64,000 bases of DNA from a virus, in IMG/VR virus record IMGVR_UViG_3300032053_000008; one strand, 5' to 3'. Under the pieces are notes generated by a model that saw only the letters and a program-made list of their open reading frames with translations, had not been told where the DNA came from and made no database searches. The first letter of the stretch is position 1. Each line of letters opens with the position of its first letter. The position numbers and the translations under genes are program-made. Shown here piece after piece: positions 2,463 through 49,704 of this stretch.

Positions 2463-2489
2463 TAAAGTTTTTCCCAGATCAGCCGATAA
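2463..2489 (+). promoter_or_regulatory. sigma-28 (FliA) promoter
   Basis: TAAAGTTT-N11-GCCGATAA, perfect consensus, followed by AAGGAG RBS and ATG 2515. Confidence 0.9.
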
Positions 2490-2514
2490 GGCAATGTAAC
2501 ACAAAGGAGACCAC

Positions 2515-2799
2515 ATGTCACTGAAAACGTATAAAGTAGCAACATTACTAGTAATTGACCTAGATTCTGGTAATGAAATTGCCTGTACTGTAACCTCTGA
2601 TATTACCGTTGATCCTATGGCAGGGGCAGACCGAGATGGACGTAGAGGCTACCAGGAATACTACCGAGGCAACACTTTAGCTTTACCTTTTGGCGAAGAG
2701 TGTAGCCTAGAAGAAAAACACGAATTTGAAACAAAACTAAATAAAGCTATTGACACGTATGACTGGATAGATGCACTCTTGAAGCAGTATGACGTTTAA
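2515..2799 (+). CDS. hypothetical protein
   Basis: ORF with strong RBS after sigma-28 promoter. Confidence 0.8.
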   Translation: MSLKTYKVATLLVIDLDSGNEIACTVTSDITVDPMAGADRDGRRGYQEYYRGNTLALPFGEECSLEEKHEFETKLNKAIDTYDWIDALLKQYDV

Positions 2800-2814
2800 C
2801 CTTTAGGAGCAGTC

Positions 2815-3093
2815 ATGGCAAACAGTATTCTTGGTCGAGCATTTTTGGTTGGTGTTTTTGCTGGCAGTGTAGCTATTGTTGTTGCTTTGTTGATGTCTTG
2901 TAACTCTCCAGCTAAAGTACACACAAGCAATTTCCGTTTGATGTGTTGGCTGCCAAACGGTGAAGTTTTCTATAATGGTACAGCTAGCAGAGTTGAAGCT
3001 CGCGGCGGCGGATTAACTTTTGTGCCAGATATTGGCCCACAAACCGGTATGATAATCAATACCACCAATGCTTGCACTTGGGCACAACTATGA
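2815..3093 (+). CDS. putative lipoprotein/membrane protein
   Basis: Hydrophobic N-terminus ending LLMSC; AGGAG RBS. Confidence 0.65.
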   Translation: MANSILGRAFLVGVFAGSVAIVVALLMSCNSPAKVHTSNFRLMCWLPNGEVFYNGTASRVEARGGGLTFVPDIGPQTGMIINTTNACTWAQL

Positions 3094-3269
3094 CCAAAAG
3101 ATTGGCCTATTACCTAATAGACAAAAAGACTGGCACACCACTAGCAGCCCATACCCAAAATGGAGCTAGGCTACAAGAATGGAAAGAAGAGCTAGAAAAA
3201 AGAGGCTACGAGGTTGAGGTACAACCTAGAGAAATTGAAGATATTTTTGATGGAAAGGTGGGGCAATGA
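3090..3269 (+). CDS. hypothetical protein
   Basis: ATGA-coupled ORF starting MTKRLAYY. Confidence 0.65.
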   Translation: MTKRLAYYLIDKKTGTPLAAHTQNGARLQEWKEELEKRGYEVEVQPREIEDIFDGKVGQ

Positions 3270-3817
3270 ATCTTTTGTGGCTTGATCTGGAAACAACTGG
3301 ACTAGATCCAATGAAACACGATATCCTGGAAATTGGGATGGTTGTTACTGATGATTCTTTAAATGTTCTAGAGTCGCTTAATATCGTCTTAGCTCAACAG
3401 GAAGAGGCTTTAGGCCGTATGGACCAATGGTGCTGGACCACCCACACCCAGTCCGGTCTAGTGGATGCTGTGCGTAACAGTGACACTACCATGTTTGATG
3501 CCAAGATTTTGATGAGCGTTTTTCTTACGATGAACTTTCCTAATACCAAGCCAGTTTTACATGGCAACAGTATCCATTTTGACAAAAAGTTTATTGATTT
3601 GCACATGCCGGAAATCTCTGAAATGCTCCATTACCGCCTGATGGACGTGTCGTCCTGGAAAGAGTGGTTTAAGACTGTTGGATTTTCATATAAAGCTCAA
3701 TTTCCATCAAACCATAGAGCACTAGATGACATCAGAGGTAGTGTTGAAGAGTTTAAGTATTATAGCGGAGTTGTGAAAAAAGGTTTAGATAATATGGAGC
3801 ATCAGCCAAATGGCTAG
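3266..3817 (+). CDS. orn: oligoribonuclease (DEDDh 3'-5' exonuclease)
   Basis: LWLDLETTGLDP..ILEIG..TD, THTQSGL, GNSIHFDKKF, LHYRLMDVSS, HRALDDIRGS. Confidence 0.9.
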   Translation: MNLLWLDLETTGLDPMKHDILEIGMVVTDDSLNVLESLNIVLAQQEEALGRMDQWCWTTHTQSGLVDAVRNSDTTMFDAKILMSVFLTMNFPNTKPVLHGNSIHFDKKFIDLHMPEISEMLHYRLMDVSSWKEWFKTVGFSYKAQFPSNHRALDDIRGSVEEFKYYSGVVKKGLDNMEHQPNG

Positions 3818-4007
3818 GAAGATCAGGCCACTAGGTAAAATAATGCTTGAAATGGAACCTTTGATTCTGGAAATGGTTGATCATGATGTCCAACATGGTG
3901 ACATCCTTAACCTTATTCGAGGTTATTTAGAAGTCCATTGCCCTGATGCCAGAGAAGAATATGAAGACGGATCACATCCAGTCTTTTTTTATGGAGCTAA
4001 AAAGTGA
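3810..4007 (+). CDS. hypothetical protein
   Basis: Coupled ORF with GGAG RBS. Confidence 0.7.
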   Translation: MARKIRPLGKIMLEMEPLILEMVDHDVQHGDILNLIRGYLEVHCPDAREEYEDGSHPVFFYGAKK

Positions 4008-4222
4008 AAAATTTGAATCCAGATACATTTAAGGCTAAACTATACGAAAAGTATGGTGAACTTTTTGGCCACAGTTATGGCCACTTTTTGGCGTGGTATG
4101 AAGACCCTAAAATCTATTGGGGCAATCTTAGTCCTAAAGAAATGGTAGAAGCTGGCCGATATGGTAGTGTAGCTGGAACACTGGAAAGCTACATTACCGG
4201 AGAATCTAGTCCACACAGTTGA
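4004..4222 (+). CDS. small protein resembling the Xre/MbcA/ParS antitoxin C-terminal domain
   Basis: WYEDPKIYWGNLSPKEMVEAGR resembles W..P...LG..P..++..G. Confidence 0.4.
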   Translation: MKNLNPDTFKAKLYEKYGELFGHSYGHFLAWYEDPKIYWGNLSPKEMVEAGRYGSVAGTLESYITGESSPHS

Positions 4223-4231
4223 GGTAAAAAA

Positions 4232-4975
4232 ATGGTTAAAATTTTACTCTTAAATGACACCCATAAAGGCTTTACACACAACACGGACAAAATACACCAA
4301 AAGTTTTTCCAAGATGTTGCCAGGGAAGAATTTGACGTAATAGTTCATGCTGGTGACATGGCGACCAACAAGCAAAAGCAAGTTAAACGTACTTTTGAAC
4401 AAATGCGTCAATTAGCAGGCAAAAGACCGGTATTGGCCGTTAGGGGCAATCATGACTATTGGCAACACAACAAAAGGTTTGGCTGGTTAAACTTTTATCA
4501 ATTGCTAGACCAGCATCGAGTTTGGGCCAAAGAAAACGATATAGTCCTTTTAGATGAGGGTGGTTTATACGAAACTGACCAGATATTTATTGGCGGATTT
4601 CTTACTTGGTATAAAGAGTGTAAACCAGGTACAAATGACTACCAGTGGATGGACAACCTTACCCCAGACTGTCAAATTGTTGGGGACTATTTAAGAGCTT
4701 TGGAATACAAACGTATAAACGATTTGATTCCTTTGTTAGACAATGCTATTGGTAAAACCAGGATTGTTGTTAGCCATATGCCTATCTTTGGGGATGCCAG
4801 AGACCAAAGATATACAGCTAATTACAATAATCAAGTTGCGTTAAAAGGTAATTGCGAATACTATTTTTGTGGTCATAGCCATAGGCACTATGAAGGTCAA
4901 GAACAGTTTTGGGCCAAGGTTTATCAGACCGGAACAGACTACAATAAACCAAGATACCAGATAATTGAGGTATAA
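4232..4975 (+). CDS. calcineurin-like metallophosphoesterase
   Basis: DTH, AGD, GNHD, SH, GHSH motifs. Confidence 0.9.
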   Translation: MVKILLLNDTHKGFTHNTDKIHQKFFQDVAREEFDVIVHAGDMATNKQKQVKRTFEQMRQLAGKRPVLAVRGNHDYWQHNKRFGWLNFYQLLDQHRVWAKENDIVLLDEGGLYETDQIFIGGFLTWYKECKPGTNDYQWMDNLTPDCQIVGDYLRALEYKRINDLIPLLDNAIGKTRIVVSHMPIFGDARDQRYTANYNNQVALKGNCEYYFCGHSHRHYEGQEQFWAKVYQTGTDYNKPRYQIIEV

Positions 4976-4977
4976 CA

Positions 4978-5217
4978 ATGACACCCAAAGAAATCAACGA
5001 CTTATACAATAACTGTGAACATCTATACGAAATTCAAGGTGTTTTGTTAGAAAACTGGCCAAAGATTTATGAACTAATCAAAGCGGCAGAAGGAGTAGCT
5101 TATGGACTTGAAATCTCATTGTGCGGCGGAAGCGACGATAGGGTTATGTATTCTATGGCTGTTTCGCTGGCTAATTACAAAAAAGCGCTAAAGGAACTAG
5201 AAATTGAGCAAGCTTAA
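4978..5217 (+). CDS. hypothetical protein (Ead/Ea22-like paralog family)
   Basis: WPKIYELIKAAE resembles 17576 and 17970 ORFs. Confidence 0.6.
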   Translation: MTPKEINDLYNNCEHLYEIQGVLLENWPKIYELIKAAEGVAYGLEISLCGGSDDRVMYSMAVSLANYKKALKELEIEQA

Positions 5218-5467
5218 TTTCCATTTGAATGGACGACTCCTTACCTGGCAAATCTTTGAAAAAGACTTGTCTGATTATCTTACTTTTGTAATTATGAGCC
5301 CGCTGGTACGATATGGTGACCTAAGTGTGCACAACATAGACCAAACTAAAGGCTTTTCATTAGAAATGCCAACTAAAATAAGTTTTGAAAAAGACGACTA
5401 CAGCTGGACCATTATTGTAAGATTTATGGGTTTTGGGTTTCAAATTTTTAGGCAACAGGGGTATTGA
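5204..5467 (+). CDS. hypothetical protein
   Basis: Coupled ORF, AAGGA RBS, TTG start. Confidence 0.6.
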   Translation: MSKLNFHLNGRLLTWQIFEKDLSDYLTFVIMSPLVRYGDLSVHNIDQTKGFSLEMPTKISFEKDDYSWTIIVRFMGFGFQIFRQQGY

Positions 5468-5820
5468 TGCCAGATACAAAAACCCTAAAAAAATACCTTA
5501 ACAAAACAACAGCTTGGCCGTGGACTAGCATATATACCCATCCATTTGGTGTCCAAATCAAGGAGGTAACTATTACCAACTTCACTGGTGCCGACTACTT
5601 CAAACAACATGACGCTATCTTGATTTTGATGTTAAGGTCTATGTTGCCTGAAATGATCAATTTGATAGAAGCTGCCGATCAATTAATTGAAGGGTCCACT
5701 ACCAGAGCTGACATTCTGGAAAATGGTGAAATTCATGTACATTGGACAAAAGTAAGCCAAGAACACTGGTCTAACCTATACAATACACTAAAAGCCATAA
5801 AGGAGAAAAAAATTGAATAA
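5464..5820 (+). CDS. hypothetical protein (Ead/Ea22-like)
   Basis: TAWPW..DAILI..RSMLPEMINLIEAAD pattern. Confidence 0.6.
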   Translation: MMPDTKTLKKYLNKTTAWPWTSIYTHPFGVQIKEVTITNFTGADYFKQHDAILILMLRSMLPEMINLIEAADQLIEGSTTRADILENGEIHVHWTKVSQEHWSNLYNTLKAIKEKKIE

Positions 5821-6010
5821 TATAATTGGAACATTTTCTTTGTCTTACACTTTAGGTATAGTTGACTTGCCCGAAGGTCCTTTTATTTGCGTAGAGTGTG
5901 ATCTATTGGACAAGCCAATACTTGCTAGAAGAAAAGACACGGTAATGCGACTATTTTATGCAGCGTTAAGCGACAAATATAAATGGAGACCAGAAAATGT
6001 TAACAATTAG
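5813..6010 (+). CDS. hypothetical protein
   Basis: AAGGAG RBS, TTG start. Confidence 0.6.
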   Translation: MNNIIGTFSLSYTLGIVDLPEGPFICVECDLLDKPILARRKDTVMRLFYAALSDKYKWRPENVNN

Positions 6011-6632
6011 GCCCATTACCTCTAAAATAGTTCACGTTGAAGCTGGCACCCAAAAAGAGCTAAATGAAGCTTTTCTTCGGATCGTAGAGTATGGCGAATC
6101 TCCAGAATGGAAAGGCAAAATCTTTACCATTGGTCAATATCGTAAATGGTATGCCGAAACCAATGGTGCCTTCAGTTATGACACCGACTGGTCTGGCTTT
6201 AATGTCACCCAGGAACACTTTAAGCCATTCATTAAGGGTCTATTTGACCCTCTTACTCCTAGTGAACAACAACTAGTAGACTGGGTTAAAGATCGTGACG
6301 ATGTCTATAGCATGATAGGCAGTCAGCCTGATGGAGACGCTTTTGATCATGAGATGTGCCACGCTTTTTTTGCTACCGACACACACTACAAAGATTTGTG
6401 TATTCAGGTTATAGTGAATATGGCGCAATCTCGCCCAGATCAATATGCCAAAATGGCTAAATGGATTATTGATATTGGCTACCATGAATCAGTTACAATA
6501 GATGAAATGCACGCTTTTATTTCAGCGGACAGAGACTGGTTGATGGAAAAGAAGGGTATCTATGTTGACCCTAGCTTGCAAATTCAACTGGTTGATATTA
6601 AAAATAAATTCTATACACCTAAAAAAAGCTAA
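5997..6632 (+). CDS. conserved phage protein with HExxH motif (possible zincin-like metalloprotein)
   Basis: DHEMCHA and DEMHAF motifs. Confidence 0.55.
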   Translation: MLTIRPITSKIVHVEAGTQKELNEAFLRIVEYGESPEWKGKIFTIGQYRKWYAETNGAFSYDTDWSGFNVTQEHFKPFIKGLFDPLTPSEQQLVDWVKDRDDVYSMIGSQPDGDAFDHEMCHAFFATDTHYKDLCIQVIVNMAQSRPDQYAKMAKWIIDIGYHESVTIDEMHAFISADRDWLMEKKGIYVDPSLQIQLVDIKNKFYTPKKS

Positions 6633-6656
6633 AGTTTTTTTAACTTTGACCGATAG
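6630..6656 (+). promoter_or_regulatory. sigma-28 promoter
   Basis: TAAAGTTT-N11-ACCGATAG; -35 overlaps the upstream stop codon. Confidence 0.8.
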
Positions 6657-6729
6657 GGTGTTTGTCAGGTCGGCGTGGGAAATCGCTAGGTAAAAGTCAA
6701 GAGGCCCTTAACCTTTTATTGGAGATCAC

Positions 6730-6960
6730 ATGAAAATCAACCTGTTTTCAAATCTTAGCGGAATCTTTGGTCTTTTTGCTATAAGTTTGTTTCTGTTTGT
6801 AATTAGTGTATCGATGTATGGTCTTGTTCTGGCATTTAAGGCATCTTTGCTTATTGGAGTGTTGGCACTTTTTATTGAACCGGCACCATTTGTTATCGGT
6901 ATGATGTATCTTTTTAGTGACATTAATTTAGCTCAAAAACTTGCTGATTTTTTATTCTAA
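6730..6960 (+). CDS. membrane protein
   Basis: Two hydrophobic segments; GGAG RBS. Confidence 0.75.
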   Translation: MKINLFSNLSGIFGLFAISLFLFVISVSMYGLVLAFKASLLIGVLALFIEPAPFVIGMMYLFSDINLAQKLADFLF

Positions 6961-6981
6961 AACATAAATTAAGAGGTTATT

Positions 6982-7131
6982 ATGGAATTGTTTTTTGGTA
7001 TTCTTTTAGCAACAGGTGGGTTAGATATGAACGCGCAATACCAGTATTTTATCCTGGAAGCATGTGAAACCCAATACCCAGCAGCTGAAAGAATCAGTCT
7101 TGAAAAAGCTTTGTCTGAGGTTTACGACTAA
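6982..7131 (+). CDS. small hypothetical protein (49 aa, MELFFGILL...)
   Basis: GAGG RBS; below ORF-track cutoff. Confidence 0.6.
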   Translation: MELFFGILLATGGLDMNAQYQYFILEACETQYPAAERISLEKALSEVYD

Positions 7132-7159
7132 GTGCTTTCAAGTGCACTTTAAATTACTT

Positions 7160-7184
7160 TAAGGGGACATGAGGCCCCTTTTTT
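7160..7184 (+). terminator. Rho-independent terminator
   Basis: AAGGGG-acatgagg-CCCCTT followed by T run. Confidence 0.6.
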
Positions 7185-7201
7185 GCACTTTAGGGGTTTT
7201 T

Positions 7202-7489
7202 ATGTATGACGACCAAATAGTAAAAGAAAACGGTTTTGACAAGATTATTAAAGAGTTAAATAAACTAGAGGCCATTTTGCCTGGATTCTACCCAGAAGAA
7301 AATATCTTCTATAAAATTGGTAACTTAATGCGTCTGGCTGACAATATGGCTAGTGTGGTTGAGTCAATAGAGCCCTTTCTTAGGCATGAAGGTTACCTTA
7401 TGGCAGCAAACGACTGCCAAAAGCTTACTAGAGCTTGGAAACAGGAAACGGGAGACCAAGATGAAAGCCTTGATAGTAGCTCACTTTAA
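7202..7489 (+). CDS. hypothetical protein
   Basis: Start MYDDQ after GGGG RBS. Confidence 0.65.
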   Translation: MYDDQIVKENGFDKIIKELNKLEAILPGFYPEENIFYKIGNLMRLADNMASVVESIEPFLRHEGYLMAANDCQKLTRAWKQETGDQDESLDSSSL

Positions 7490-7661
7490 GACTGTTGTAA
7501 CAATACTTGGCACAATAGCTATTTGGTGTTTAATTGTGAAGTTTCCTTTTTATGCCTTGATGGCTTTTGGCGGTTTTTGTTTTATTATTGCATATTTTGC
7601 CATTTATTCACATTTTATAACTAAAAGACGATCAGATTTTGATGACTGGGGACCACGTTAA
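7461..7661 (+). CDS. membrane protein
   Basis: Start MKALIV after GGAG; two TM segments. Confidence 0.7.
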   Translation: MKALIVAHFKTVVTILGTIAIWCLIVKFPFYALMAFGGFCFIIAYFAIYSHFITKRRSDFDDWGPR

Positions 7662-7664
7662 TGC

Positions 7665-7691
7665 TAAAGTTTTCCTGATTTTTGCCGATAA
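7665..7691 (+). promoter_or_regulatory. sigma-28 promoter
   Basis: TAAAGTTT-N11-GCCGATAA. Confidence 0.9.
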
Positions 7692-7722
7692 GGTTTGAGT
7701 AAGTAACGTAAGGAGACCAAAA

Positions 7723-8076
7723 ATGATTGACATAACTAAGCAATACAAAACGCGAGATGGTCGGGATGTACGGATACTGTGTGTGGACGGGCCTAGCATT
7801 CACCACCCGGTTATAGGGATTATTAGTGGTGAGACAATACCCACAAGATGGTCAGAACATGGTATAGCTGCTTTCCCATGCTGTGACCTCCTCGAGGTCA
7901 AACCTAAGATCGTGGTTGAGCGGTGGGTGAATATTTTTCAGTACAAAAACTATAGCTCATCTGGACCCCATATTGATTGGTTCGATGACTCTCAGAGCGC
8001 CTTTGCAGAACATTATAATCCAAATATAACAGTCCTAGCCCGCGCGGTACCGTTTAAGTGGGAGGGGGAGGGATGA
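7723..8076 (+). CDS. hypothetical phage protein (KYKTRDGRDVRILCVD type)
   Basis: AAGGAG RBS after promoter. Confidence 0.8.
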   Translation: MIDITKQYKTRDGRDVRILCVDGPSIHHPVIGIISGETIPTRWSEHGIAAFPCCDLLEVKPKIVVERWVNIFQYKNYSSSGPHIDWFDDSQSAFAEHYNPNITVLARAVPFKWEGEG

Positions 8077-8354
8077 AAACTAAAGGCTTGACGCTAGCAG
8101 AGGCACACGCGAGTGGTAGGAAATATAAGCGTCCTCTATGGGATAGATACGCCCGACTGGTAGATAAGACAGTATTTCTACCAGACGCCATAGCCACAGA
8201 CTACGAGCTTGAACCAGAGGCTAAGCTGCTTACTAGGGAGGATGTAAAGGCGGCTATATATTTAGCACTGAGAGGGAAAATAGGCCCATCTTACCACGAT
8301 AGGTGCCTAGAAGAGGTGGTAACGGACAAACTATTCGGCCCGGAGGATGTATGA
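8073..8354 (+). CDS. hypothetical protein, paralog of 15773..15991
   Basis: MKTKGLTL.EAHA.GRKY..LEP.AKLLTREDV shared. Confidence 0.75.
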   Translation: MKTKGLTLAEAHASGRKYKRPLWDRYARLVDKTVFLPDAIATDYELEPEAKLLTREDVKAAIYLALRGKIGPSYHDRCLEEVVTDKLFGPEDV

Positions 8355-8569: not shown

Positions 8570-8775
8570 GTTTTTACCAAGATTGGGCAGAAGAAGCTGC
8601 GTCATTATTGACGTTTAGGGATCAGTATGAACCTGAGGCTTTTGAATACCATGCGCAAAAACTGGTGGAAAAATGGGAAAAATACCCACCGCACGCACAA
8701 GGCATAAAGGAAATGGGTGAACAGTGGAGTGATGGTTTTGATGGTTCAGCCATTTGTCATCACACTAAAGACTAA
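8566..8775 (+). CDS. 69-codon ORF with ATA start (or start-dead pseudogene): ISFYQDWAEEAASLL...
   Basis: Open frame fills the gap exactly; junction GAAGATATATAA is a variant of GAGGATGTATGA. Confidence 0.55.
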   Translation: MSFYQDWAEEAASLLTFRDQYEPEAFEYHAQKLVEKWEKYPPHAQGIKEMGEQWSDGFDGSAICHHTKD

Positions 8776-8799
8776 AGTTTTCCTATGCCATGCCGATAA
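8773..8799 (+). promoter_or_regulatory. sigma-28 promoter
   Basis: TAAAGTTT-N11-GCCGATAA. Confidence 0.9.
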
Positions 8800-8817
8800 G
8801 GTATTTACGGAGGAAAC

Positions 8818-9184: not shown

Positions 9185-9211
9185 TAAAGTTTTCCAAGAA
9201 AAGACCGATAA
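9185..9211 (+). promoter_or_regulatory. sigma-28 promoter
   Basis: TAAAGTTT-N11-ACCGATAA. Confidence 0.88.
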
Positions 9212-9241: not shown

Positions 9242-10064
9242 ATGGTAGTAATTATGACAAAATGGCTTAATGATCACCAAATAAATGGTACCCCTAAAGT
9301 AGACCAAGACAATTTACGTAAACGCCAAATTTTTGCTAGTGTTATCAATACCTTTGATAAACCCAAGAAAAAGCCGCGTAAACGTAAAACCACGTTGTCG
9401 CAGCACAATTTTGGAGACTGCAGATGACCAGACTAGAAAGACTTAGGAGTTTGTACTGGATGATACAACCAGATGAAAGCTATAAAGGTGGTACCGCCAT
9501 TTTAACGGCAGAAGAATTAGCAATGCTTTTGGATGTAGCTGAATTGGTTAGCAATTTAAAGATTGATTACATTACTGCAGGCGCACTAGCCAAACTTAAT
9601 GAAGAGGTTGATAATGACACCTGAAGAGGCTAAAATTGAGTGGAAAAAGCTTTTGTATAAAAGTAGAGAAATCAGTCATCGTCAGGTTCGACTTAAGATT
9701 GAACTGGAAGAGACTATTGAACAGGCAGAAAGTATATGCAAACTTGAAAGAGAAGCTTATAGAAAATATAAGGAACTAAATGAATATGGCAATAATTCTT
9801 AGTGGTATTTTTATAGTAAACATGTACGGTATGGAGTCAGATACCAGTAAAGATATCAATTACTTACTGGTAAAAGACAACTACAATATAGCCTATACCA
9901 CCACAAAAGTCTTGCCAAACAAGTTTGAAGCTGTTATCAAAGTTGAGTGTGAATCGGCCATAGCGCTGAGGCCGGTACCTAAAGTTTTTGATCAAGTTTT
10001 CCCTTGGGGTATTAAAGAACAGATCTATGTGTGTAATACCATTGATTTTAATCTAGTGCCCTAA
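9242..10064 (+). CDS. run of four small coupled hypothetical genes (9242-9427, 9424-9624, 9614-9802, 9780-10064)
   Basis: Overlapping start/stop codons with RBSs. Confidence 0.6.
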
Positions 10065-10089
10065 AGTTTACCAAAGTTTCTACCGATAA
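10062..10089 (+). promoter_or_regulatory. sigma-28 promoter
   Basis: TAAAGTTT-N12-ACCGATAA. Confidence 0.75.
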
Positions 10090-11604: not shown

Positions 11605-11631
11605 TAAAGTTTTTCACCGAAAAGCCGATAA
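11605..11631 (+). promoter_or_regulatory. sigma-28 promoter
   Basis: TAAAGTTT-N11-GCCGATAA. Confidence 0.9.
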
Positions 11632-11655: not shown

Positions 11656-13182
11656 ATGAAACTTTTCCCATACCAAATCGAAACCATACAAAACTTTATG
11701 GACCATGACGCCAGCGGTGACCCTAAGGTACCTCTAATAGCTCTGGCTACTGGCGCGGGTAAGGGCCGAGTAGCTGTTGAGATTATGTCTGGACTGGTTG
11801 ACCAAAACCCGAAAGAAAGGTTTCTGGTTTTACCGCACGCACAGACAAACCTTAGGTCTAACTTTGTCAAAGAGATTAAGAAGTGGGTTAAGCCGAACCT
11901 TAAGTTCCTAGAAATCAGCCCAGACTCCGAGCCAACGCCAGCCCAAATAGCTGAAGCTAATGTTGTGGTGTGTTTGCCTCAAACGGCTAGGAACCTTTTG
12001 CCATATCTAGGTAATTTTACTAGGATTTTGGTAGATGAAGCTCACGAAAGATACGCCAAAGACAACGAAAACAAAAAGGAATACACCCAGATACGCCAAG
12101 GCTTGCCGAAAGCCAAGGAAATCCTCCTTACCGCGTCCCATGGGGAGTTTAAAAATAGCCACTACAAAAAGTTTACTGTGTCTTTACTGGAAGCTTATAG
12201 TCATGGCACCGTGTCGGATGTGTCACTGGTAGGCGTAAACACCAAATGGGATTTTACAGTCAAAGACTTCAACCAATCCGGCGAAATCGTAAAAGAAGTC
12301 AACATAACGCCACAAAAAGTGGTAGAAGCTTTGCATGACCTGGTTCTCGAAATGGACTCCTGGCGCGGCATTGGGTCCAACAACAAAACCACCAGAGCGA
12401 TCAAGGGTAGCTTTGTGAAAGCCATAAAGCGGCTATCAGGTGACTTCCCTAAGACGGTTATTGCCACCAGAAATATCGACATGGCGGAACAGGTTTATAA
12501 GTTCTTTATAGAGCAAAATGGCTTGGCTGGTCAGGTCATTATGTCGCATAGCAAAAACGACGACGACCGTTTGTTAGAGTTTAATGGAAACGACAAACTG
12601 AAAGTTCTTATAGTTGTCAACAGGGCTAACCTTGGGTTTGACGCTGAAAACGTGATGTGCGTAGTGGATATGACCGGAACCACCAATGAAAACCGTATGA
12701 TGCAGCTTATTGGCCGAGCTGCTAGGGTCCGCCGTGACTCAAAAGGTCAGCCAATCAAAGACGAAAAAGCTTACTTCAAAGTCATGCCCCAGAACATGGA
12801 AATGTATACCAGGGCTCTTTTGCAGTTGTCAGCCCTACTTACTATCAAAAGGTACTACGCTGACTACGAAGGCCGCCAGCCGCTTAAAAAGCAGATTACG
12901 GTAGCCCGTAAAAAGAATGCAATTGCGCAATTTAATGGCACCAGACCTAAAAAGGAAAACGACGGAATATATATACCGGTGCCAAACAGGCTGTCGGATT
13001 TGATTGTTGGAGCAGACCAGTTTTTCACAGAATATGCTAGGACCCACGGCGAATACCTTGAAGTATTTACCAAGACATCCTTAAGTGAAGTAAAGAACTC
13101 TAAGGTTGTTGGAGATGTTGGATTAACACCAAAAGAAATCATTGAATATGCTGAAAATAAATTTGGCAGAACCGTTAGCTAA
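11656..13182 (+). CDS. superfamily 2 (DEAH / type III Res-like) helicase
   Basis: Q motif LFPYQ, Walker A ATGAGKG, DEAH, LTAS, NLGFD, QLIGRAAR. Confidence 0.88.
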   Translation: MKLFPYQIETIQNFMDHDASGDPKVPLIALATGAGKGRVAVEIMSGLVDQNPKERFLVLPHAQTNLRSNFVKEIKKWVKPNLKFLEISPDSEPTPAQIAEANVVVCLPQTARNLLPYLGNFTRILVDEAHERYAKDNENKKEYTQIRQGLPKAKEILLTASHGEFKNSHYKKFTVSLLEAYSHGTVSDVSLVGVNTKWDFTVKDFNQSGEIVKEVNITPQKVVEALHDLVLEMDSWRGIGSNNKTTRAIKGSFVKAIKRLSGDFPKTVIATRNIDMAEQVYKFFIEQNGLAGQVIMSHSKNDDDRLLEFNGNDKLKVLIVVNRANLGFDAENVMCVVDMTGTTNENRMMQLIGRAARVRRDSKGQPIKDEKAYFKVMPQNMEMYTRALLQLSALLTIKRYYADYEGRQPLKKQITVARKKNAIAQFNGTRPKKENDGIYIPVPNRLSDLIVGADQFFTEYARTHGEYLEVFTKTSLSEVKNSKVVGDVGLTPKEIIEYAENKFGRTVS

Positions 13183-13206
13183 AGTTTTCCTGGTTTTGGC
13201 CGATAA
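13180..13206 (+). promoter_or_regulatory. sigma-28 promoter inside an 80-nt insert between helicase and repeat gene
   Basis: TAAAGTTT-N11-GCCGATAA. Confidence 0.88.
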
Positions 13207-13229: not shown

Positions 13230-14678
13230 ATGTTGTACGTATTTGAAAACACAGACGACTGGAAAAAGAAAGACCCAGAATCATACCGGGCTGCTTTAAA
13301 AATTGGTAAAGTGAGAGAAATTGCACTAGAGATTTGTAAAAGAAATCCCAGCAGCTCTGACATTAAAAAAACTCAACTCCTTGAAATGGCTAGAAATGGT
13401 GACAAGAGACCCAGTCAAAGAACTTATCCATTAGGCACGGCTATTGGTAGCTACACAATAAAAGGTAGCGACACTTTTGACGAAGATTTTACCAAACAAA
13501 TCAAAGAAATAGCACCAGATTGGTTTGTAAGTCGATCTAATACAGCTAATACCAAAAAAGCTCAACTCCTTGAAATAGCTAGAAATGGAGAACCGAGACC
13601 CCATCAAACAAAACATTCATTAGGTAGATCTCTTTGTAGCTATACAACAAAAGGTAGGGCGATTTTTGACGAAGATTTTACCAAACAAATCAAAGAAATA
13701 GCACCACATTGGTTTGAAAATACGGCTAATACCAAAAAAGCTCAATTACTTGAAATGGCTAGAAATGGTGACAAAAAACCTCATAGGGAAACCGTACCGG
13801 GCACAGCTCTTCATTCCTACACAACAAAAGGTAGAGACACTTTTGACGAAGATTTTACCAAAGAACTCAAAGAAATAGCACCAGATTGGTTTGTAAGTCG
13901 ATCTAATACAGCTAATACCAAAAAAGCTCAACTCCTTGAAATAGCTAGAAATGGAGAACCGAGACCCCATCAAACAAAACATTCATTAGGCACAGCTCTT
14001 GGTAGCTACACAATAAAAGGTAGCGAGATTTTTGACGAAGATTTTACCAAACAAATCAAAGAAATAGCACCAGATTGGTTTGTAAGTCGATCTAATACAG
14101 CTAATACCAAAAAAGCTCAACTCCTTGAAATAGCTAGAAATGGAGAACCGAGACCCCATCAAACAAAACATTCATTAGGTAGATCTCTTTGTAGCTATAC
14201 AACAAAAGGTAGGGCGATTTTTGACGAAGATTTTACCAAACAAATCAAAGAAATAGCACCACATTGGTTTGAAAATACGGCTAATACCAAAAAAGCTCAA
14301 TTACTTGAAATGGCTAGAAATGGTGACAAAAAACCTCATAGGGAAACCGTACCGGGCACAGCTCTTCATTCCTACACAACAAAAGGTAGAGACACTTTTG
14401 ACGAAGATTTTACCAAAGAACTCAAAGAAATAGCACCAGATTGGTTTGTAAGTCGATCTAATACAGCTAATACCAAAAAAGCTCAACTCCTTGAAATAGC
14501 TAGAAATGGAGAACCGAGACCCCATCAAACAAAACATTCATTAGGCACAGCTCTTGGTAGCTACACAATAAAAGGTAGCGAGATTTTTGACGAAGATTTT
14601 ACCAAACAAATCAAAGAAATAGCACCACACTGGTTTAACTCAAAAAAGAGTTCAAGTTTCCCGCAAAAAAGCCGATAA
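13230..14678 (+). CDS. tandem-repeat protein, 7 x 60-63 aa helicase-associated (HA)-like helical repeats
   Basis: Unit KKAQLLE.ARNG..P....LG..L.SYT.KG...FDEDFTKQIKEIAP.WF. Confidence 0.8.
   Translation: MLYVFENTDDWKKKDPESYRAALKIGKVREIALEICKRNPSSSDIKKTQLLEMARNGDKRPSQRTYPLGTAIGSYTIKGSDTFDEDFTKQIKEIAPDWFVSRSNTANTKKAQLLEIARNGEPRPHQTKHSLGRSLCSYTTKGRAIFDEDFTKQIKEIAPHWFENTANTKKAQLLEMARNGDKKPHRETVPGTALHSYTTKGRDTFDEDFTKELKEIAPDWFVSRSNTANTKKAQLLEIARNGEPRPHQTKHSLGTALGSYTIKGSEIFDEDFTKQIKEIAPDWFVSRSNTANTKKAQLLEIARNGEPRPHQTKHSLGRSLCSYTTKGRAIFDEDFTKQIKEIAPHWFENTANTKKAQLLEMARNGDKKPHRETVPGTALHSYTTKGRDTFDEDFTKELKEIAPDWFVSRSNTANTKKAQLLEIARNGEPRPHQTKHSLGTALGSYTIKGSEIFDEDFTKQIKEIAPHWFNSKKSSSFPQKSR
13364..14637 (+). 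repeat. coding tandem repeats (180-189 nt units) with a 555-nt higher-order duplication
   Basis: Antisense ORFs recur at +555 (13431/13986; 13746/14301); units 2-4 are repeated as 5-7. Confidence 0.9.
14652..14678 (+). promoter_or_regulatory. sigma-28 promoter
   Basis: TCAAGTTT-N11-GCCGATAA; the -10 supplies the upstream stop codon. Confidence 0.82.
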
Positions 14679-15178: not shown

Positions 15179-15205
15179 TCAAGTTTTCCACCAAAATACC
15201 GACAA
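15179..15205 (+). promoter_or_regulatory. sigma-28 promoter (variant)
   Basis: TCAAGTTT-N11-ACCGACAA. Confidence 0.65.
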
Positions 15206-33893: not shown

Positions 33894-33920
33894 TTATCGG
33901 CTTTTTGGTCAAAAACTTTA
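33894..33920 (-). promoter_or_regulatory. sigma-28 promoter
   Basis: Reverse complement TAAAGTTT-N11-GCCGATAA. Confidence 0.9.
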
Positions 33921-41099: not shown

Positions 41100-41126
41100 T
41101 AAAGTTTTTCCAGTTTCAACCGATAA
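41100..41126 (+). promoter_or_regulatory. sigma-28 promoter
   Basis: TAAAGTTT-N11-ACCGATAA. Confidence 0.88.
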
Positions 41127-43852: not shown

Positions 43853-44492
43853 CTAAACGTTATTTGTTAACTTTCTTGGATTTTTGTATATTTGCTTTAT
43901 TTTTTGGTGGATTGTGGTATGTTCAAGTTGAAACAATTGACTGGTTTTATGATCTAGATTATGGGTTATATTTGATTGTGTTTTTACAATTTATGGCTAT
44001 TTTTTTTGTGTCTTGTAGTTTAGCAAAATACATTGAATGGAGAGAAAAATGAAAAAAACTCTTTTTTTTATAACATCTTGTTTTTTATGGTCTTATTGTA
44101 TACTTTTAGTTTTTTTATTAAAAGTGCAAATAACTGAAAAAGCAGAAACAATACAATATTCAACCCTTTTGTTTGGTGGAATAGTTTTACATTGTTTATG
44201 CTTGACTACTATTGAGCTAATTAAGAATCCAAAAAAGTACTATCGCAGACTGTTTAGTCAACGTGTAAACATTTACCGTATGAGTGCTTTGTTTTTTGGA
44301 TGTCATTTAGGTGGAACAAAAGATGATCTTATGGTGGAGATTTTTCTAGGTAAGCGTAGTGTAATTATTGATTTATCTTTGCCTAGTCATCGAAATTGGG
44401 TAGATAAAAAGGACGAAGAAATCGATGAATATCTGATAAAAGAATTTATCAATGAGACTAAAGTTTCTGACCAAAATGCCGATAAGGTTTAA
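43849..44492 (+). CDS. two membrane proteins (43849-44052, 44049-44492)
   Basis: Hydrophobic segments, ATGA coupling. Confidence 0.65.
44459..44485 (+). promoter_or_regulatory. sigma-28 promoter with no downstream sense gene (antisense to late genes)
   Basis: TAAAGTTT-N11-GCCGATAA. Confidence 0.85.
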
Positions 44493-44527: not shown

Positions 44528-44995
44528 TTACCCGCCGTAAGATACCCACATACCTGTGAAACTCACACTGGCCTGTAGCGTTTGCCTAGCCTGGAACGCT
44601 ACCTGCCAGCTCGTCACTTTGCAAAACTCTATACTAAGTAACAATTCACCTGTTTGGCGGTCATAAAAACGGAAATGACAATACCGGCTTGGGGCTTGCT
44701 GAGGATAGCTGTTGGTTTCAGATTGACTATCTACCGTTGGAGCCACTAAACCCATACGGATAGGGTCAGTGCCTTTGAGCATAAATAGGTTCATAGAGCC
44801 TTGGACCATACTCTGACCAGCTGCCAGGGCAATCTCTTGGGGGAATACCGAGTCAACGCCCATGATGTTTTGGGCACCAAGCGACTGGCTGAAGTTCAGG
44901 CCGCTGGCGTAGCCAATGGTTCTTTCAACTGCTTCACCAGATTCGTAAGCTATGGCCAACCTGACGCTAGCGCCAGTATATAACATAGTTTGCAT
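44528..44995 (-). CDS. tail tube-like structural protein
   Basis: 155 aa beta-rich; IGYASGLNFS..IMGVDS..PQEI pattern; end of late operon. Confidence 0.5.
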   Translation of the reverse strand: MQTMLYTGASVRLAIAYESGEAVERTIGYASGLNFSQSLGAQNIMGVDSVFPQEIALAAGQSMVQGSMNLFMLKGTDPIRMGLVAPTVDSQSETNSYPQQAPSRYCHFRFYDRQTGELLLSIEFCKVTSWQVAFQARQTLQASVSFTGMWVSYGG

Positions 44996-47679: not shown

Positions 47680-47688
47680 GAAATTACC

Positions 47689-48590
47689 TTAGTGTTTTGA
47701 ATTTGAAACACACTTAACGCATTTTTCAAAAAGATACATTGTATTATGAGATACAAATTGATTAGAAAAAGATTGTGTCCATTGTGCCCCGCAACACCTA
47801 CAGCCGCACTTTATGTCAACAGGGAAAATGGCCTGGATCATTGTGCCAATACCTATGTTTCTGTCAGTCAGTATTGTCTGTTGTTTTGGTGGGTTGAGTA
47901 TTGTCAGTAGTTTTTTTAACATTATAGCAATACCCGCAAGAACATTTAAGCCAGCCAAGATTAGCTAACCTGGTTTCTGGGTGGTAGATCATCCACGTGG
48001 AGCACTTAGGACATATCACTTGAGGTCATCGTTTCTAACTACCCTCAGTCCTTTTGGTTTTTTTGTGTCTGGTGGTTGAATTTTATCTAAGCGAGCATTT
48101 AAGGCCAACATTCCACCTGAAATAATTGTATCCCAAGTACGCACCATGTCAACCTCTTTATTATAAACAGCTTCTACTCTGGCGTGGATCTCTTGAAATG
48201 ATCTTAGCCCCTCTTGACTTAGCTTGAGGTTTACACTATATCCACTTGTTGGCTGTTTGTCTTTTTTCTTGAACCAATTCCAAAACATACGGTCCCTCCA
48301 AAGAAAAAGCCTCCCTAAGAAGATTAGGGAGGCAAAAGTAAGCACACGTCTGGGGGTATGTATCAGTCTTTTCTTAAAGGTAAGTTCGTGATTCTTTTAG
48401 TAATTTTGTCAGAATCTCTTATTTCTTCAAACTGTTTAGTTTGCCCACAATAAGTACACTTGAAGTAGGTGAAATGAAAGAGGTATTCCTCTTCCCAGTG
48501 GTGGGTGCACCAACTGGACTTTTCTTCACTGTAGTCACCTTCACTACCAAAACCTAAAGAACCTGTACCCCACCACATATTAGACCTCAA
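47689..48590 (-). CDS. three small hypothetical genes (47689-47922 Zn-finger-like, 48016-48288, 48363-48590 Zn-ribbon)
   Basis: CxxC motifs, RBSs. Confidence 0.55.
48309..48334 (-). terminator. Rho-independent terminator
   Basis: GCCTCCCTAA/TTAGGGAGGC followed by T run on minus strand. Confidence 0.8.
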
Positions 48591-49300
48591 TTGCTTGATT
48601 TTGCTTGAGTTGTCTCTTCTTTAATTTTTTCCAGCTTGGCAATCCGGTGTTCTTCCTGCATGTCAAACATGCTACGGACATAAGCATCAGTTTCTTGAGC
48701 ACCAACTCCACTATTATTTTTCATAGCCTTGAGGGTAGAGCCATTACTGCCACCGTTATAAGCCGCAGATGCTTTTGCTAAATTCCCATTATAAGTGGCC
48801 GCTAGGCCCTTAAAGTGGGTATACCCCAAAAGGATATTGATTTCTGAGTCAAAAAGATCGTCAGAAGTCAATTTACCCATTTTAAGATTGTCAGCTTCAG
48901 CTTGAGCAGTGGCTGGCATCATTTGAGCGATACCTTTAGCTCCAGCAGTGGAAGTTAAATTAGTTCGGTATTGGCTTTCCTGGCACATCAAAAAGATAAA
49001 AGCTTCTTGTGTGCGGCGGTCTCCACCAATACTACCAAGAATACGGTCAATCTGGCGTGACAACATAGCTTTTTTAACTTCACTGAGTCCATTGTTTTTG
49101 CTGCCGGTACATTTTGGTGTGTTCATCATCCATATAGTCACTTCTGCCAAGGTTTCTTCTGGGAGTTTTTCCTCTATAACAACTGTGGGTGCAACAACAA
49201 CACTTTTTTTGTTTATGTCATAGCTATAAATGGCAAACGCTAATAACAGCGGCGATAAAGCCATGGCAGCTTTAAAAAGATTTTTAGTAGAAAGAAACAT
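48587..49300 (-). CDS. membrane-anchored lytic transglycosylase (SLT domain)
   Basis: QES..STAGAKGIAQMMPATA..NILLG..AAYNGG..ETDAYV; N-terminal TM; TTGACT-N17-CATAGT upstream. Confidence 0.9.
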   Translation of the reverse strand: MFLSTKNLFKAAMALSPLLLAFAIYSYDINKKSVVVAPTVVIEEKLPEETLAEVTIWMMNTPKCTGSKNNGLSEVKKAMLSRQIDRILGSIGGDRRTQEAFIFLMCQESQYRTNLTSTAGAKGIAQMMPATAQAEADNLKMGKLTSDDLFDSEINILLGYTHFKGLAATYNGNLAKASAAYNGGSNGSTLKAMKNNSGVGAQETDAYVRSMFDMQEEHRIAKLEKIKEETTQAKSSN

Positions 49301-49363
49301 AACGGTATCTCCTAAATTGTTTCTAAAGCGACTATGCCCCAAAATGGGTCCAAAGTCAATGTT

Positions 49364-49540
49364 TCAGCTCAGAAGCTTGTCCATACAAACGTAACCTATT
49401 GCAAGTATTGCCCCAACTACACTAGATCCAATCAGCTCATAAAAGTAATAAAACCGACCTTTTTTAGTTACAAACAAAAAACGTACCCAATATACCAAGA
49501 ACACTAGACTAGTAAACATTCCCCAGGCTGCTATAAACAT
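49364..49540 (-). CDS. small two-TM membrane protein (58 aa, MFIAAWGMF...)
   Basis: Read manually; GGAG RBS. Confidence 0.6.
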   Translation of the reverse strand: MFIAAWGMFTSLVFLVYWVRFLFVTKKGRFYYFYELIGSSVVGAILAIGYVCMDKLLS

Positions 49541-49647
49541 TATTTCTTACTCCAATCTTTAACTTTACCAGACAACATTAGGCCAATAATTGGCCAGCAC
49601 AACATAACCGACAACGAAAAAGCCAATAAAACTGTTTCTAGTGTCTT
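49540..49647 (-). pseudogene. 35-codon membrane peptide ORF whose start reads AAG instead of ATG
   Basis: Follows a promoter/RBS cassette nearly identical to 7665-7725. Confidence 0.45.
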
Positions 49648-49677
49648 TTTGGTCTCCTTGCGTTACTTACTTAAACC

Positions 49678-49704
49678 TTATCGGCTTTTTTTGCCAAAAC
49701 TTTA
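49678..49704 (-). promoter_or_regulatory. sigma-28 promoter
   Basis: Reverse complement TAAAGTTT-N11-GCCGATAA. Confidence 0.9.

What the first reader, a model, noticed from the sequence alone, without database searches (positions are those of the whole stretch)
2463..49704. Phage early programme wired to the host flagellar sigma factor (14 sigma-28/FliA promoters)
Seen: 14 copies of T(A/C)AAGTTT-N11-(G/A)CCGA(T/C)A(A/G) at 2463, 6630, 7665, 8773, 9185, 10062 (N12), 11605, 13180, 14652, 15179, 33894(-), 41100, 44459 and 49678(-). Almost all lie just before an RBS and an accessory gene, often right after a terminator or overlapping the upstream stop codon, and none heads a virion gene. Established: TAAAGTTT-N11-GCCGATAA is the FliA/sigma-28 consensus, and FliA dominates attack-phase transcription in Bdellovibrio bacteriovorus. 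Inference: the phage commits to early expression only in motile, FliA-active cells, which points to a predatory Bdellovibrionota-like host or a motility-state-sensing infection strategy.
Basis: partly seen in the sequence, partly recalled or inferred. Interest (0 to 1): 0.85.

Follow-up and report, generated by a model that had tools for sequence, protein, structure and literature searches.

The report
Flagellar-sigma-type promoter array in a phage
A large uncultured phage starts its non-structural genes from 15 near-perfect copies of the promoter type that bacteria use for flagellar genes; comparison with related phages indicates that the host's motility sigma factor, not the phage's own truncated sigma factor, reads them, but this is untested.

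Summary
Eight match TAAAGTTT-N11-GCCGATAA at 16 of 16 positions. Thirteen match with at most 2 mismatches, against 0.06 expected by chance. Twelve of the 15 lie in the 4.4% of the window that is intergenic. Fourteen point at a start codon 10-137 nt downstream, and several follow terminators.

No sigma factor or RNA polymerase gene was found in the window. The phage is a distant relative of Myxococcus phage Mx1. That group shares a cryptic ~340-aa sigma factor that mostly scores below Pfam's threshold and ends before the -35-reading region 4.2. I did not see this phage's own copy.

The motif does not travel with that sigma. Mx1 and 17 of 18 complete relatives (at least 90% by CheckV) have 0-1 hits; the other has 2. 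One relative (G065) has the same promoter type. A sister phage (G083), whose sigma has a near-identical region 2, has sigma-70-type promoters in front of its small early-type genes.

Best reading (about 0.55): the host's sigma-28 holoenzyme reads them. The Bdellovibrionota host idea has no support, because the motif occurs in many phyla. The scan has noted similar arrays before in this genome and in other phages.

The parts
416..442 (-). Sigma-28-type promoter (TCAAGTTT-N11-GCCGATAA), new 15th site. It lies inside the 3' end of the DUF5661 gene and heads a 60-aa ORF (209-391); in the ENA contig ORFs of 718 and 1012 aa follow to the left of the window.
2463..2489 (+). Perfect sigma-28-type promoter, 25 nt before the ATG at 2515. 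It heads a run of small ORFs plus an RNase_T exonuclease and a Metallophos phosphoesterase (to 6632).
6630..6656 (+). Sigma-28-type promoter (2 mismatches: ACCGATAG), overlapping the stop of the upstream gene, 73 nt before the ATG at 6730.
7665..7691 (+). Perfect sigma-28-type promoter, 31 nt before the ATG at 7723. Its leader (GGTTTGAGTAAGTAACGTAAGGAGACC) is duplicated at the 49704(-) site.
8773..8799 (+). Perfect sigma-28-type promoter, 18 nt before the ATG at 8818.
9185..9211 (+). Sigma-28-type promoter (ACCGATAA), 30 nt before the ATG at 9242.
10062..10089 (+). Sigma-28-type promoter with a 12-nt spacer, 39 nt before the ATG at 10129 (454-aa ORF).
11605..11631 (+). Perfect sigma-28-type promoter, 24 nt before the ATG of the 508-aa ResIII/DEAD helicase (11656-13182). 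It lies 55 nt after a hammerhead-II-like element.
13180..13206 (+). Perfect sigma-28-type promoter overlapping the helicase stop codon, 23 nt before the ATG at 13230 (482-aa repeat protein).
14652..14678 (+). Sigma-28-type promoter (TCAAGTTT) inside the last codons of 13230-14678, 49 nt before the ATG at 14728.
15179..15205 (+). Weakest copy (TCAAGTTT-N11-ACCGACAA), directly after the terminator hairpin at 15148-15169. The first ATG is 10 nt downstream (15216) and a second in-frame ATG follows a better RBS.
33894..33920 (-). Perfect sigma-28-type promoter, 31 nt before the ATG of a 68-aa Fis-type HTH protein (33656-33862). It is preceded by a 12-bp-stem terminator (34038-34011) and three ~33-bp tandem repeats.
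41100..41126 (+). Sigma-28-type promoter (ACCGATAA) directly after a terminator-like hairpin (41059-41095). It heads the unit 41157-44492, which includes ThyX.
44459..44485 (+). Perfect sigma-28-type promoter with the usual GGTTTAAGTAA leader but no RBS or ORF. It fires towards the 3' end of the convergent tail-tube-like gene (44528-44995, -).
49678..49704 (-). Perfect sigma-28-type promoter directly after a terminator-like hairpin (49738-49707). It heads a 58-aa ORF, an SLT transglycosylase and a 71-aa ORF, and the unit ends at the terminator 48333-48309.

Best explanation
The 15 sites are real promoters of the sigma-28 (FliA/SigD) class. Together with intrinsic terminators they divide the non-virion part of this ~158-kb Mx1-related myovirus into short transcription units. 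These units hold small host-takeover-type ORFs, an exonuclease, phosphoesterases, a helicase, a ThyX unit, an SLT unit and a Fis-type HTH regulator.

The most likely reader is the host's own sigma-28 bound to host core RNA polymerase. Region 4 would contact TAAAGTTT, regions 2.4/3.0 would contact GCCGATAA, and transcription would start about 6-9 nt downstream, in the conserved GTAA. That would give leaders of roughly 10-25 nt that carry the RBS.

The sigma that this phage group shares (Mx1-type, truncated before region 4.2) probably serves another promoter class, most likely the late one. If so, expression of most non-structural genes depends on the host having free sigma-28, that is, on a flagellated, motile state or on a host where FliA has a wider role.

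Shown: the motif, its statistics, its placement, the absence of a sigma or RNAP gene in the window, and the architecture and distribution of the phage-group sigma. Inferred: that the sites fire, where transcription starts, who reads them, and the timing.
For: 1. Sequence. Eight of 15 sites match TAAAGTTT-N11-GCCGATAA at 16/16. These are the same boxes and spacing as the ChIP-seq-validated E. coli tar promoter TAAAGTTT-N11-GCCGATAA (PMC4183435). There are 13 matches at up to 2 mismatches against 0.06 expected.

2. Placement. Twelve of 15 lie in the 4.4% intergenic DNA. Fourteen of 15 are co-oriented with an ORF start 10-137 nt downstream. Terminators sit just upstream of four sites. The spacers vary while the boxes are fixed. 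No sigma-70-type enrichment is seen: 44 against 43.4 in 1-20 kb, and 41 against 49.6 in 31-50.5 kb. No other recurrent intergenic motif turned up.

3. No reader in the window. No Sigma70_r2/r3/r4, FlgM or RNAP domain was found in 78 ORFs of up to 330 aa at E<=0.05, nor in the larger ORFs. PHROGs gave nothing either for the 26 ORFs I scanned, mostly those with no Pfam hit. The 1523-aa ORF matches an Mx1 hypothetical protein in Mx1's tail/baseplate region, next to its kelch-repeat and baseplate-J-like genes. Precomputed Pfam lists for 10 kb on either side of the window show no sigma domain; such lists would not flag an Mx1-type sigma.

4. The phage-group sigma is an unlikely reader. The Mx1-type family aligns to Thermus SigA from region 1.2/2 only up to LSEREAMVLKLR and then ends (...LKGIKI), so it has no region 4.2 HTH. 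Yet the -35 box here is as conserved as the -10 box.

5. The motif does not co-occur with that sigma. Mx1 has 0 sites even allowing 1 mismatch. Eighteen large relatives have 0-1, 47 of 48 fragments have 0, and the complete genomes G072, G075, G080 and G083 have 0. Region 2 of the sigma (YSPVFRSVCIGRMVGN.IDSYSET.LHFYPSD) is near-identical in G065, which has five sigma-28-type sites (four by the strict pattern, one looser, at 226), and in G075, G083, G072, G017 and G080, which have none or one.

6. Promoter class differs between sister phages. In its small-gene region G083 has near-consensus sigma-70 promoters in intergenic gaps: TTGACA-17-CATAAT, TTGACT-17-TATAAT and TTGACA-17-TATTAT.

7. An unrelated complete phage (G001, 87.6 kb with terminal repeats) has four such sites and no detectable sigma r2/r4 or Mx1-type sigma.
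Against: No transcript, start site or host is known. I could inspect only the window plus about 7.6 kb of DNA to its right (L020) and Pfam-annotated gene lists for about 10 kb on each side. About 75 kb of the 158.6-kb contig was not visible to me, so a captured fliA-like gene elsewhere cannot be excluded.

This phage's own Mx1-type sigma is known to me only from an unchecked first-stage note. Its quoted C-terminal peptide does fit the family's C-terminal motif.

Phage-specific promoters are typically this uniform, and a conserved initially transcribed GTAA is not a described sigma-28 feature. Some relatives carry small HTH proteins with weak Sigma70_r4 similarity (G078, 19.8 bits), so a region 4 supplied in trans is conceivable.

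In most bacteria sigma-28 is held by FlgM until the hook-basal body is finished, which makes it a risky sole driver for a lytic programme.
Confidence: 0.55

Rival explanations
1. The promoters are read by a phage-encoded factor, not by host FliA. This could be an unrecognised sigma-28-like sigma in the unseen part of the genome. It could also be the truncated Mx1-type sigma working with a separate small HTH protein that supplies -35 recognition (a split sigma). The sites would then be middle-class promoters in a phage-run cascade like SPO1 gp28 or gp33/34.
For: The phage group carries a conserved sigma that scores below Pfam's threshold in 7 of the 8 members I scanned and so is easily missed: 12-25 bits against a cut-off of 24, and no PF04542 hit at all in G065 or G078, although both encode it. 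An unchecked note reports such an ORF and a 64-aa HTH ORF in this genome. The uniformity of the 15 sites and the conserved GGTTTnnGTAA extension resemble phage-specific promoter sets. About 75 kb of the genome was not inspected by me. A 114-aa ORF in G078 has a weak Sigma70_r4 match.
Against: The family sigma has no region 4.2. The ORF that follows it shows no r4 domain in Mx1 or in G065. Region 2 of the sigma is near-identical in phages with and without the motif. Mx1 and 17 of 18 complete relatives (at least 90% by CheckV) have 0-1 motif hits; G078 has 2. A 16/16 match to the bacterial sigma-28 consensus, spacing included, is not expected from an independently evolved factor. No sigma or RNAP domain was found in the window.
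Confidence: 0.25
2. One reading: the host is a predatory Bdellovibrionota-like bacterium in which FliA is the main attack-phase sigma. The phage would then be using the dominant sigma of the free-swimming stage rather than a minor motility sigma.
For: In B. bacteriovorus, 92 of 140 attack-phase promoters carry a FliA-like motif (PMC3627812). The exact phage motif occurs in Bdellovibrionota MAGs, with 3-9 sites per genome at up to 1 mismatch. This reading would remove the objection that sigma-28 is scarce.
Against: Nothing points to this phylum in particular. The same 30-nt pattern occurs in many phyla. The only sizeable or recurring matches of window 1-20000 to 401 Bdellovibrionota genomes are Ala-codon low-complexity repeats, alongside a few marginal 30-65-nt hits. 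The published Bdellovibrio consensus is written with one more spacer base. The only cultured relative infects Myxococcus.
Confidence: 0.08
3. The sites are not promoters. They would be binding sites for a phage DNA-binding protein, or remnants of a mobile cassette that merely resemble the sigma-28 consensus.
For: The promoter plus leader at 7665 and at 49704(-) are near-duplicates. One site (44459) has no gene downstream. The phage encodes a Fis-type HTH protein.
Against: The two boxes are invariant at a fixed 11-nt spacing while the spacers and flanks are unrelated. Fourteen of 15 sit at promoter distance from, and in the orientation of, an RBS and start codon, often just after a terminator. 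The same two boxes are validated FliA promoters in E. coli. The same motif in the same kind of position recurs in G065 at 30% GC.
Confidence: 0.03

Closest known systems
Class 3 flagellar and chemotaxis promoters read by sigma-28 (FliA) in E. coli, e.g. tar, tsr, motA (PMC4183435)
   Same: Identical -35 and -10 boxes and 11-nt spacing. The tar promoter TAAAGTTT-N11-GCCGATAA equals the phage consensus. Antisense and intragenic copies also exist in E. coli, like the phage site at 44459.
   Different: E. coli has 52 bound sites in 4.6 Mb, most of them degenerate. The phage has 15 in 64 kb, 8 of them perfect. The phage sites drive phage genes rather than motility genes, and they share an extra GGTTTnnGTAA downstream element.
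Sigma-28-dependent genes inside E. coli cryptic prophages: flxA (Qin) and ykfB (CP4-6) (PMC1935009, PMC4183435)
   Same: Phage-derived genes transcribed by the host flagellar sigma. The flxA promoter is TAAAGATT-N11-GCCGATAG.
   Different: These are single genes in defective prophages. They are not an array that organises the whole non-virion programme of a large, apparently lytic phage.
Arrays of strong host-sigma-70 early promoters with terminators in lytic phages (T4, T5 and SPO1 early regions; my own knowledge), and relative G083 here
   Same: The same layout: many short units of small genes, each with its own consensus promoter, often directly after a terminator.
   Different: The promoter class is sigma-28, not the housekeeping sigma. 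Sigma-70-type sites are not enriched in the window.
Phage-encoded sigma cascades: SPO1 gp28 and gp33/34, T4 gp55 (my own knowledge)
   Same: This phage group also carries its own sigma. Like T4 gp55 it lacks a -35-reading region 4.2.
   Different: The motif has a strong -35 box and equals a bacterial consensus. It is absent from almost all phages that carry this sigma.
FliA as global attack-phase regulator in Bdellovibrio bacteriovorus (PMC3627812)
   Same: A sigma-28-type motif drives many non-flagellar genes.
   Different: That is a bacterial regulon. No link between this phage and that phylum was found.

Membership tests
Sigma-28 (FliA/SigD) promoter class | -35 element TAAA(GTTT) | tested here: met
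   T[AC]AAGTTT in 15 of 15 sites and TAAAGTTT in 12 of 15.
Sigma-28 (FliA/SigD) promoter class | -10 element GCCGATAA | tested here: met
   [GA]CCGA[TC]A[AG] in 15 of 15 sites and GCCGATAA in 10 of 15; 11 occurrences in the window against 1.16 expected.
Sigma-28 (FliA/SigD) promoter class | 11-nt spacing between the two 8-mers | tested here: met
   N11 in 14 of 15 sites and N12 in one. This is the same spacing as E. coli tar.
Sigma-28 (FliA/SigD) promoter class | Promoter placement: upstream of and co-oriented with genes | tested here: met
   Fourteen of 15 are co-oriented with a start codon 10-137 nt downstream, and 12 of 15 lie in intergenic DNA.
Sigma-28 (FliA/SigD) promoter class | Transcription starts 6-9 nt after the -10 box and depends on sigma-28 holoenzyme | not testable with these tools
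   No RNA data and no host. A conserved GTAA lies at the expected start position.
Sigma-28 (FliA/SigD) promoter class | The host encodes fliA | not testable with these tools
   The host is unknown and no whole genome is held. The motif occurs in many phyla.
Promoters of a phage-encoded sigma (Mx1-type sigma of this phage group) | The sigma has the domains needed to read both boxes (regions 2.4/3.0 and 4.2) | tested here: not met
   The family ends right after region 4.1 and has no 4.2 HTH (alignments A1 and A2 and the PDB profile match). This phage's own copy was not seen by me.
Promoters of a phage-encoded sigma (Mx1-type sigma of this phage group) | The motif co-occurs with the sigma across related phages | tested here: not met
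   Mx1 has 0. Of 18 complete relatives (at least 90% by CheckV), 17 have 0-1 and G078 has 2. Only G065 (4-5 sites), G078 (2) and G094 (2) have more than one.
Promoters of a phage-encoded sigma-28 homologue or phage RNA polymerase | A gene with Sigma70 r2+r4, or an RNAP gene, in the phage | tested here: inconclusive
   None in the 64-kb window, nor in the Pfam lists for 10 kb on each side. About 75 kb of the contig could not be read.

The most novel reading that the evidence does not exclude
Within one phage group that shares the same truncated (probably late) sigma, whole sets of early-gene promoters have been exchanged between the housekeeping sigma-70 class and the flagellar sigma-28 class. 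Lineages such as this one would then run nearly all non-structural genes only in hosts with free sigma-28. Infection would be gated on the host's motile state, possibly coupled to adsorption to flagellated cells, and a sigma-28-driven antisense promoter (44459) would help to hold back the tail genes early on.
Probability: 0.4. Interest if true: 0.8.

Novelty: new variant of a known kind. Interest (0 to 1): 0.63.

Why it matters
Lytic phages are generally described as starting on the host's housekeeping sigma and then switching to factors of their own. A large phage that places essentially all of its non-virion units under the flagellar sigma would be a different take-over logic. It would tie productive infection to a host physiological state (motility, FlgM export), and it would suggest a simple way for bacteria to escape, by switching motility off.

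It also has a practical use. Sigma-28 arrays could be a sequence-only hint that an uncultured phage infects flagellated hosts.

The comparison made here adds a caution for similar reports. The Mx1-type sigma is mostly invisible to Pfam thresholds, so statements that a phage has no sigma should be re-checked with a family profile.

The claim can be tested directly without the host, because sigma-28 holoenzymes of model bacteria recognise this consensus.

Tried and rejected
1. ORF 13230-14678 as the sigma. In Mx1 a sigma gene follows the helicase. Here BLASTP to the Mx1 sigma gives E=19, and the ORF is a ~60-aa tandem-repeat protein.

2. Reaching the rest of the genome.
- No whole genome is held.
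- The 158,575-bp ENA contig has no DNA on hand.
- This phage's own sigma was not among the 389 family proteins I had fetched.

3. Close relatives. There is no near match in INPHARED, and IMG/VR has no close relative of the sheath-like protein. The 14 IMG/VR contigs with the exact motif are unrelated phages with 1-4 sites in the five that I counted, and none has an Mx1-type sigma.

4. Purifying-selection test on strain variants. L015, L016 and L256 are 99.6-99.98% identical to the window, which leaves too few substitutions.

5. Host from DNA matches. A search of window 1-20000 against 401 Bdellovibrionota genomes gave, as its only sizeable or recurring matches, GCT-rich Ala-repeat sequence (window 16297-16461), with a few marginal 30-65-nt hits elsewhere. 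Only the first 20 kb of the window was searched.

6. A split sigma. The ORFs that follow the sigma in Mx1 and G065 show no Sigma70_r4 domain.

7. The 1523-aa ORF as a virion RNA polymerase. It has no family hit, and its N-terminus matches an Mx1 hypothetical protein in Mx1's tail/baseplate region.

8. A late-promoter motif. CTTAATCT occurs 7 times against 3.3 expected, all on the minus strand and four of them upstream of minus-strand genes. This is too weak to claim.

9. Literature. Four searches found no paper that describes a phage early programme on sigma-28 promoters. Only single prophage genes turned up.

Full report
**Observation.** It also finds one more, at 416-442(-).
- Eight of the 15 sites are perfect 16/16 matches to TAAAGTTT-N11-GCCGATAA.
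- With up to two mismatches the window holds 13 matches, against 0.06 expected from dinucleotide shuffles.
- GCCGATAA alone occurs 11 times against 1.16 expected.
- When the sites are aligned on the -10 box, both 8-mers are fixed and the 11-nt spacers are unrelated.
- Conservation extends to a C before the -35 box, a T after it, and GGTTTnnGTAA directly after the -10 box.

**Placement.** My rough gene map leaves only 2,811 nt (4.4%) of the window intergenic, yet 12 of 15 sites lie at least 89% inside that fraction.
- Fourteen sites are co-oriented with an ORF whose start codon is 10-137 nt downstream of the -10 box, usually 18-31 nt and behind a clear RBS.
- Terminator-like hairpins lie directly upstream of the sites at 15179, 33920(-), 41100 and 49704(-). 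The 49704(-) unit ends at a strong terminator before the tail genes.
- The units contain small ORFs of unknown function, an RNase_T exonuclease, two Metallophos phosphoesterases, a ResIII/DEAD helicase, ThyX, an SLT transglycosylase and a 68-aa Fis-type HTH protein.
- The site at 44459(+) has the usual leader but no ORF, and it points into the 3' end of the convergent tail-tube-like gene.
- Sigma-70-type sites are not enriched (44 against 43.4, and 41 against 49.6). A k-mer screen of the intergenic DNA found no other recurrent motif apart from tandem repeats.

**What the genome is.**
- No whole genome is held, and the window has no tRNA genes.
- The window is part of a 158,575-bp ENA contig. 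Near-identical pieces occur in JGI, ENA and Logan assemblies.
- It is not at the start of that contig: ORFs of 718, 1012, 234 and more residues lie to its left.
- The only cultured relative is Myxococcus phage Mx1. The 894-aa sheath-position protein is 34% identical, and the N-terminus of the 1523-aa protein is 37% identical.
- Minus-strand blocks of the window encode baseplate, tail-fibre, collar and tube proteins.

**Is there a phage-encoded reader in the window?**
- I found no Sigma70_r2, r3 or r4, FlgM or RNA polymerase domain in 78 ORFs of up to 330 aa at E<=0.05.
- The larger ORFs gave none either. PHROGs gave none for the 26 ORFs I scanned, mostly those with no Pfam hit.
- The ORF that follows the helicase, where Mx1 has its sigma gene, is a tandem-repeat protein here.
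- The precomputed Pfam lists for 10 kb on each side of the window show no sigma domain. Those lists would not flag an Mx1-type sigma, because it scores below threshold.

**The sigma of the phage group.**
- Mx1 annotates a 335-aa 'putative RNA polymerase sigma factor'. It reaches only 19.5-20.9 bits on Sigma70_r2, against a cut-off of 24.
- It has more than a thousand homologues, mostly on 150-180-kb contigs, and 936 clusters at 50% identity.
- Two alignments (A1 with 32 sequences, A2 with 22) and a profile search of the PDB give the same picture. The family aligns with Thermus SigA from region 1.2/2 through region 3 up to LSEREAMVLKLR. It then ends at ...LKGIKI, before the region 4.2 helix-turn-helix that reads -35 elements.
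- The ORF that follows it shows no r4 domain in Mx1 or in G065.
- An unchecked first-stage note reports a ~331-aa sigma-like ORF about 75 kb beyond my window that 'stops before region 4.2'. The peptide it quotes fits the family's C-terminal motif LTxF(E/Q)QKL(L/I)xLKG. I could not retrieve the sequence myself.

**Does the motif travel with that sigma?** It does not.
- The pattern AAGTTT-N12-CCGAYA is absent from Mx1 even with one mismatch allowed.
- It has 0-1 hits in 18 large relatives, 13 of them at least 90% complete. It is absent from 47 of 48 further fragments.
- It is absent from the complete genomes G072, G075, G080 and G083 of the clade whose sigma is 65-73% identical to that of G065.
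- G065 (58 kb, 30% GC) is the exception. It has five CTAAAGTTT-N11-xCCGATAAGT sites in front of small plus-strand ORFs, the same layout as in my window.
- Region 2 of the sigma is near-identical in G065 and in the relatives that lack the motif.
- G083 has the same kind of small-gene region, but with near-consensus sigma-70 promoters in its intergenic gaps: TTGACA-17-CATAAT with TG, TTGACT-17-TATAAT and TTGACA-17-TATTAT.
- Phages that share one sigma therefore differ in early-promoter class. This is what is expected if host sigmas read these promoters and the phage sigma serves another class, probably the late one.
- An unrelated complete phage (G001, 87.6 kb) carries four such sites and has no detectable sigma at all.

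**Comparison with known promoters.**
- The phage consensus equals the ChIP-seq-validated E. coli tar promoter, box for box and in spacing. tsr, motA and the Qin-prophage gene flxA are close variants (PMC4183435).
- flxA and ykfB show that phage-derived genes can be sigma-28-dependent (PMC1935009).
- The exact 30-nt pattern occurs in genomes of many phyla. Three Bdellovibrionota MAGs have 3-9 sites in about 2.5 Mb at up to one mismatch, against 12 in 64 kb here at the same stringency.

**Host.** The host is unresolved.
- The Bdellovibrio attack-phase role of FliA is real (PMC3627812), but nothing ties this phage to that phylum.
- The only sizeable or recurring matches of window 1-20000 to 401 Bdellovibrionota genomes are Ala-codon repeats.

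**Verdict.**
- The sites are sigma-28-class promoters by every sequence criterion that I could test.
- The most likely reader is host sigma-28 (0.55). A phage-encoded reader remains possible (0.25), because about 75 kb of the genome was not visible to me and the group does carry a cryptic sigma.
- Four literature searches found no description of a phage programme built on sigma-28 promoters.
- The scan itself has noted the same motif in other windows of this genome and similar arrays in other uncultured phages. Those notes are not independent evidence.
- Where they say 'no sigma factor', they should be re-checked with the Mx1-type profile, because Pfam misses it.

Noticed in passing
window 33656-33862 (-) and 33921-34010: A 68-aa Fis-type HTH protein (PF02954, 43.9 bits) is the first gene behind the sigma-28-type promoter at 33920(-). 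Between the upstream terminator (34038-34011) and the promoter lie three ~33-bp tandem repeats that contain GGTACGTAAAAGTAC. They may be operator sites for this protein.
   Followed up: partly
window 11492-11549 (+): A type II hammerhead ribozyme candidate lies right after the stop of the 454-aa ORF and 55 nt before the promoter at 11605. Rfam RF02276 gives 36.2 bits (gathering score 37), E=5.4e-06, over the full model length. It was missed at the gathering threshold.
   Followed up: partly
window 32976-33321 (-): A 346-nt non-coding gap downstream of the HTH unit folds better than all 100 shuffles (-104.2 kcal/mol, z = -3.2). It has no Rfam match at the gathering threshold. This may be a structured RNA.
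   Followed up: partly
window 13230-14678 (+): The 482-aa protein is made of ~60-aa repeats (…ANTKKAQLLEIARNGE…FDEDFTKQIKEIAPDWF). Its gene is 112, 234 or 297 codons long in otherwise 99.9%-identical strains, so this is a copy-number hot spot.
   Followed up: partly
window 7665-7722 (+) and 49704-49650 (-): Promoter plus leader plus RBS are near-duplicates at the two sites (GGTTT.AGTAAGTAACG.AAGGAGACCAAAAA). At 49704 the start codon position reads AAG and the next ORF starts 137 nt downstream. This looks like a copied promoter cassette.
   Followed up: no
window 30825-31038 (-): There are three to four tandem copies of a ~41-bp unit (…AATAAAGTATGTTAT…CTTTAAGTGATAAATGTCTC) directly upstream of the T4 gp9/10-like baseplate gene.
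   Followed up: no
window 2460, 22865, 31799, 38698 (-): CTTAATCT lies upstream of four minus-strand genes, several of them structural. It occurs 7 times in the window, all on the minus strand, against 3.3 expected. It is a weak candidate for the late promoter element that the truncated phage sigma might read.
   Followed up: partly
window 48152-48125 (-): This is the best sigma-70-type match in the window (TTGACA-16-TACAAT, 11 of 12). It lies just after the terminator that ends the sigma-28-driven SLT unit and upstream of the tail genes.
   Followed up: no
Mx1-type sigma family (P0243-P0366): About 20 family representatives are 570-820 aa long and match the profile in two separate stretches. 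An insertion such as an intein, or a fusion, would explain this. I did not examine them.
   Followed up: no
G078:C1:35367-35453 (-): A 114-aa ORF in a complete relative has a weak Sigma70_r4 match (19.8 bits, E=1.1e-4). It lies a few kb from that phage's two sigma-28-type sites. It is worth testing as a possible region 4 supplied in trans.
   Followed up: no
window 15988-16518 (+): This 176-aa ORF (phrog_18326) has an Ala/Tyr-rich low-complexity tail (…AADAAASYATASYAADAYAAANYAAASY…). That tail produces spurious DNA matches to many bacterial genomes.
   Followed up: yes
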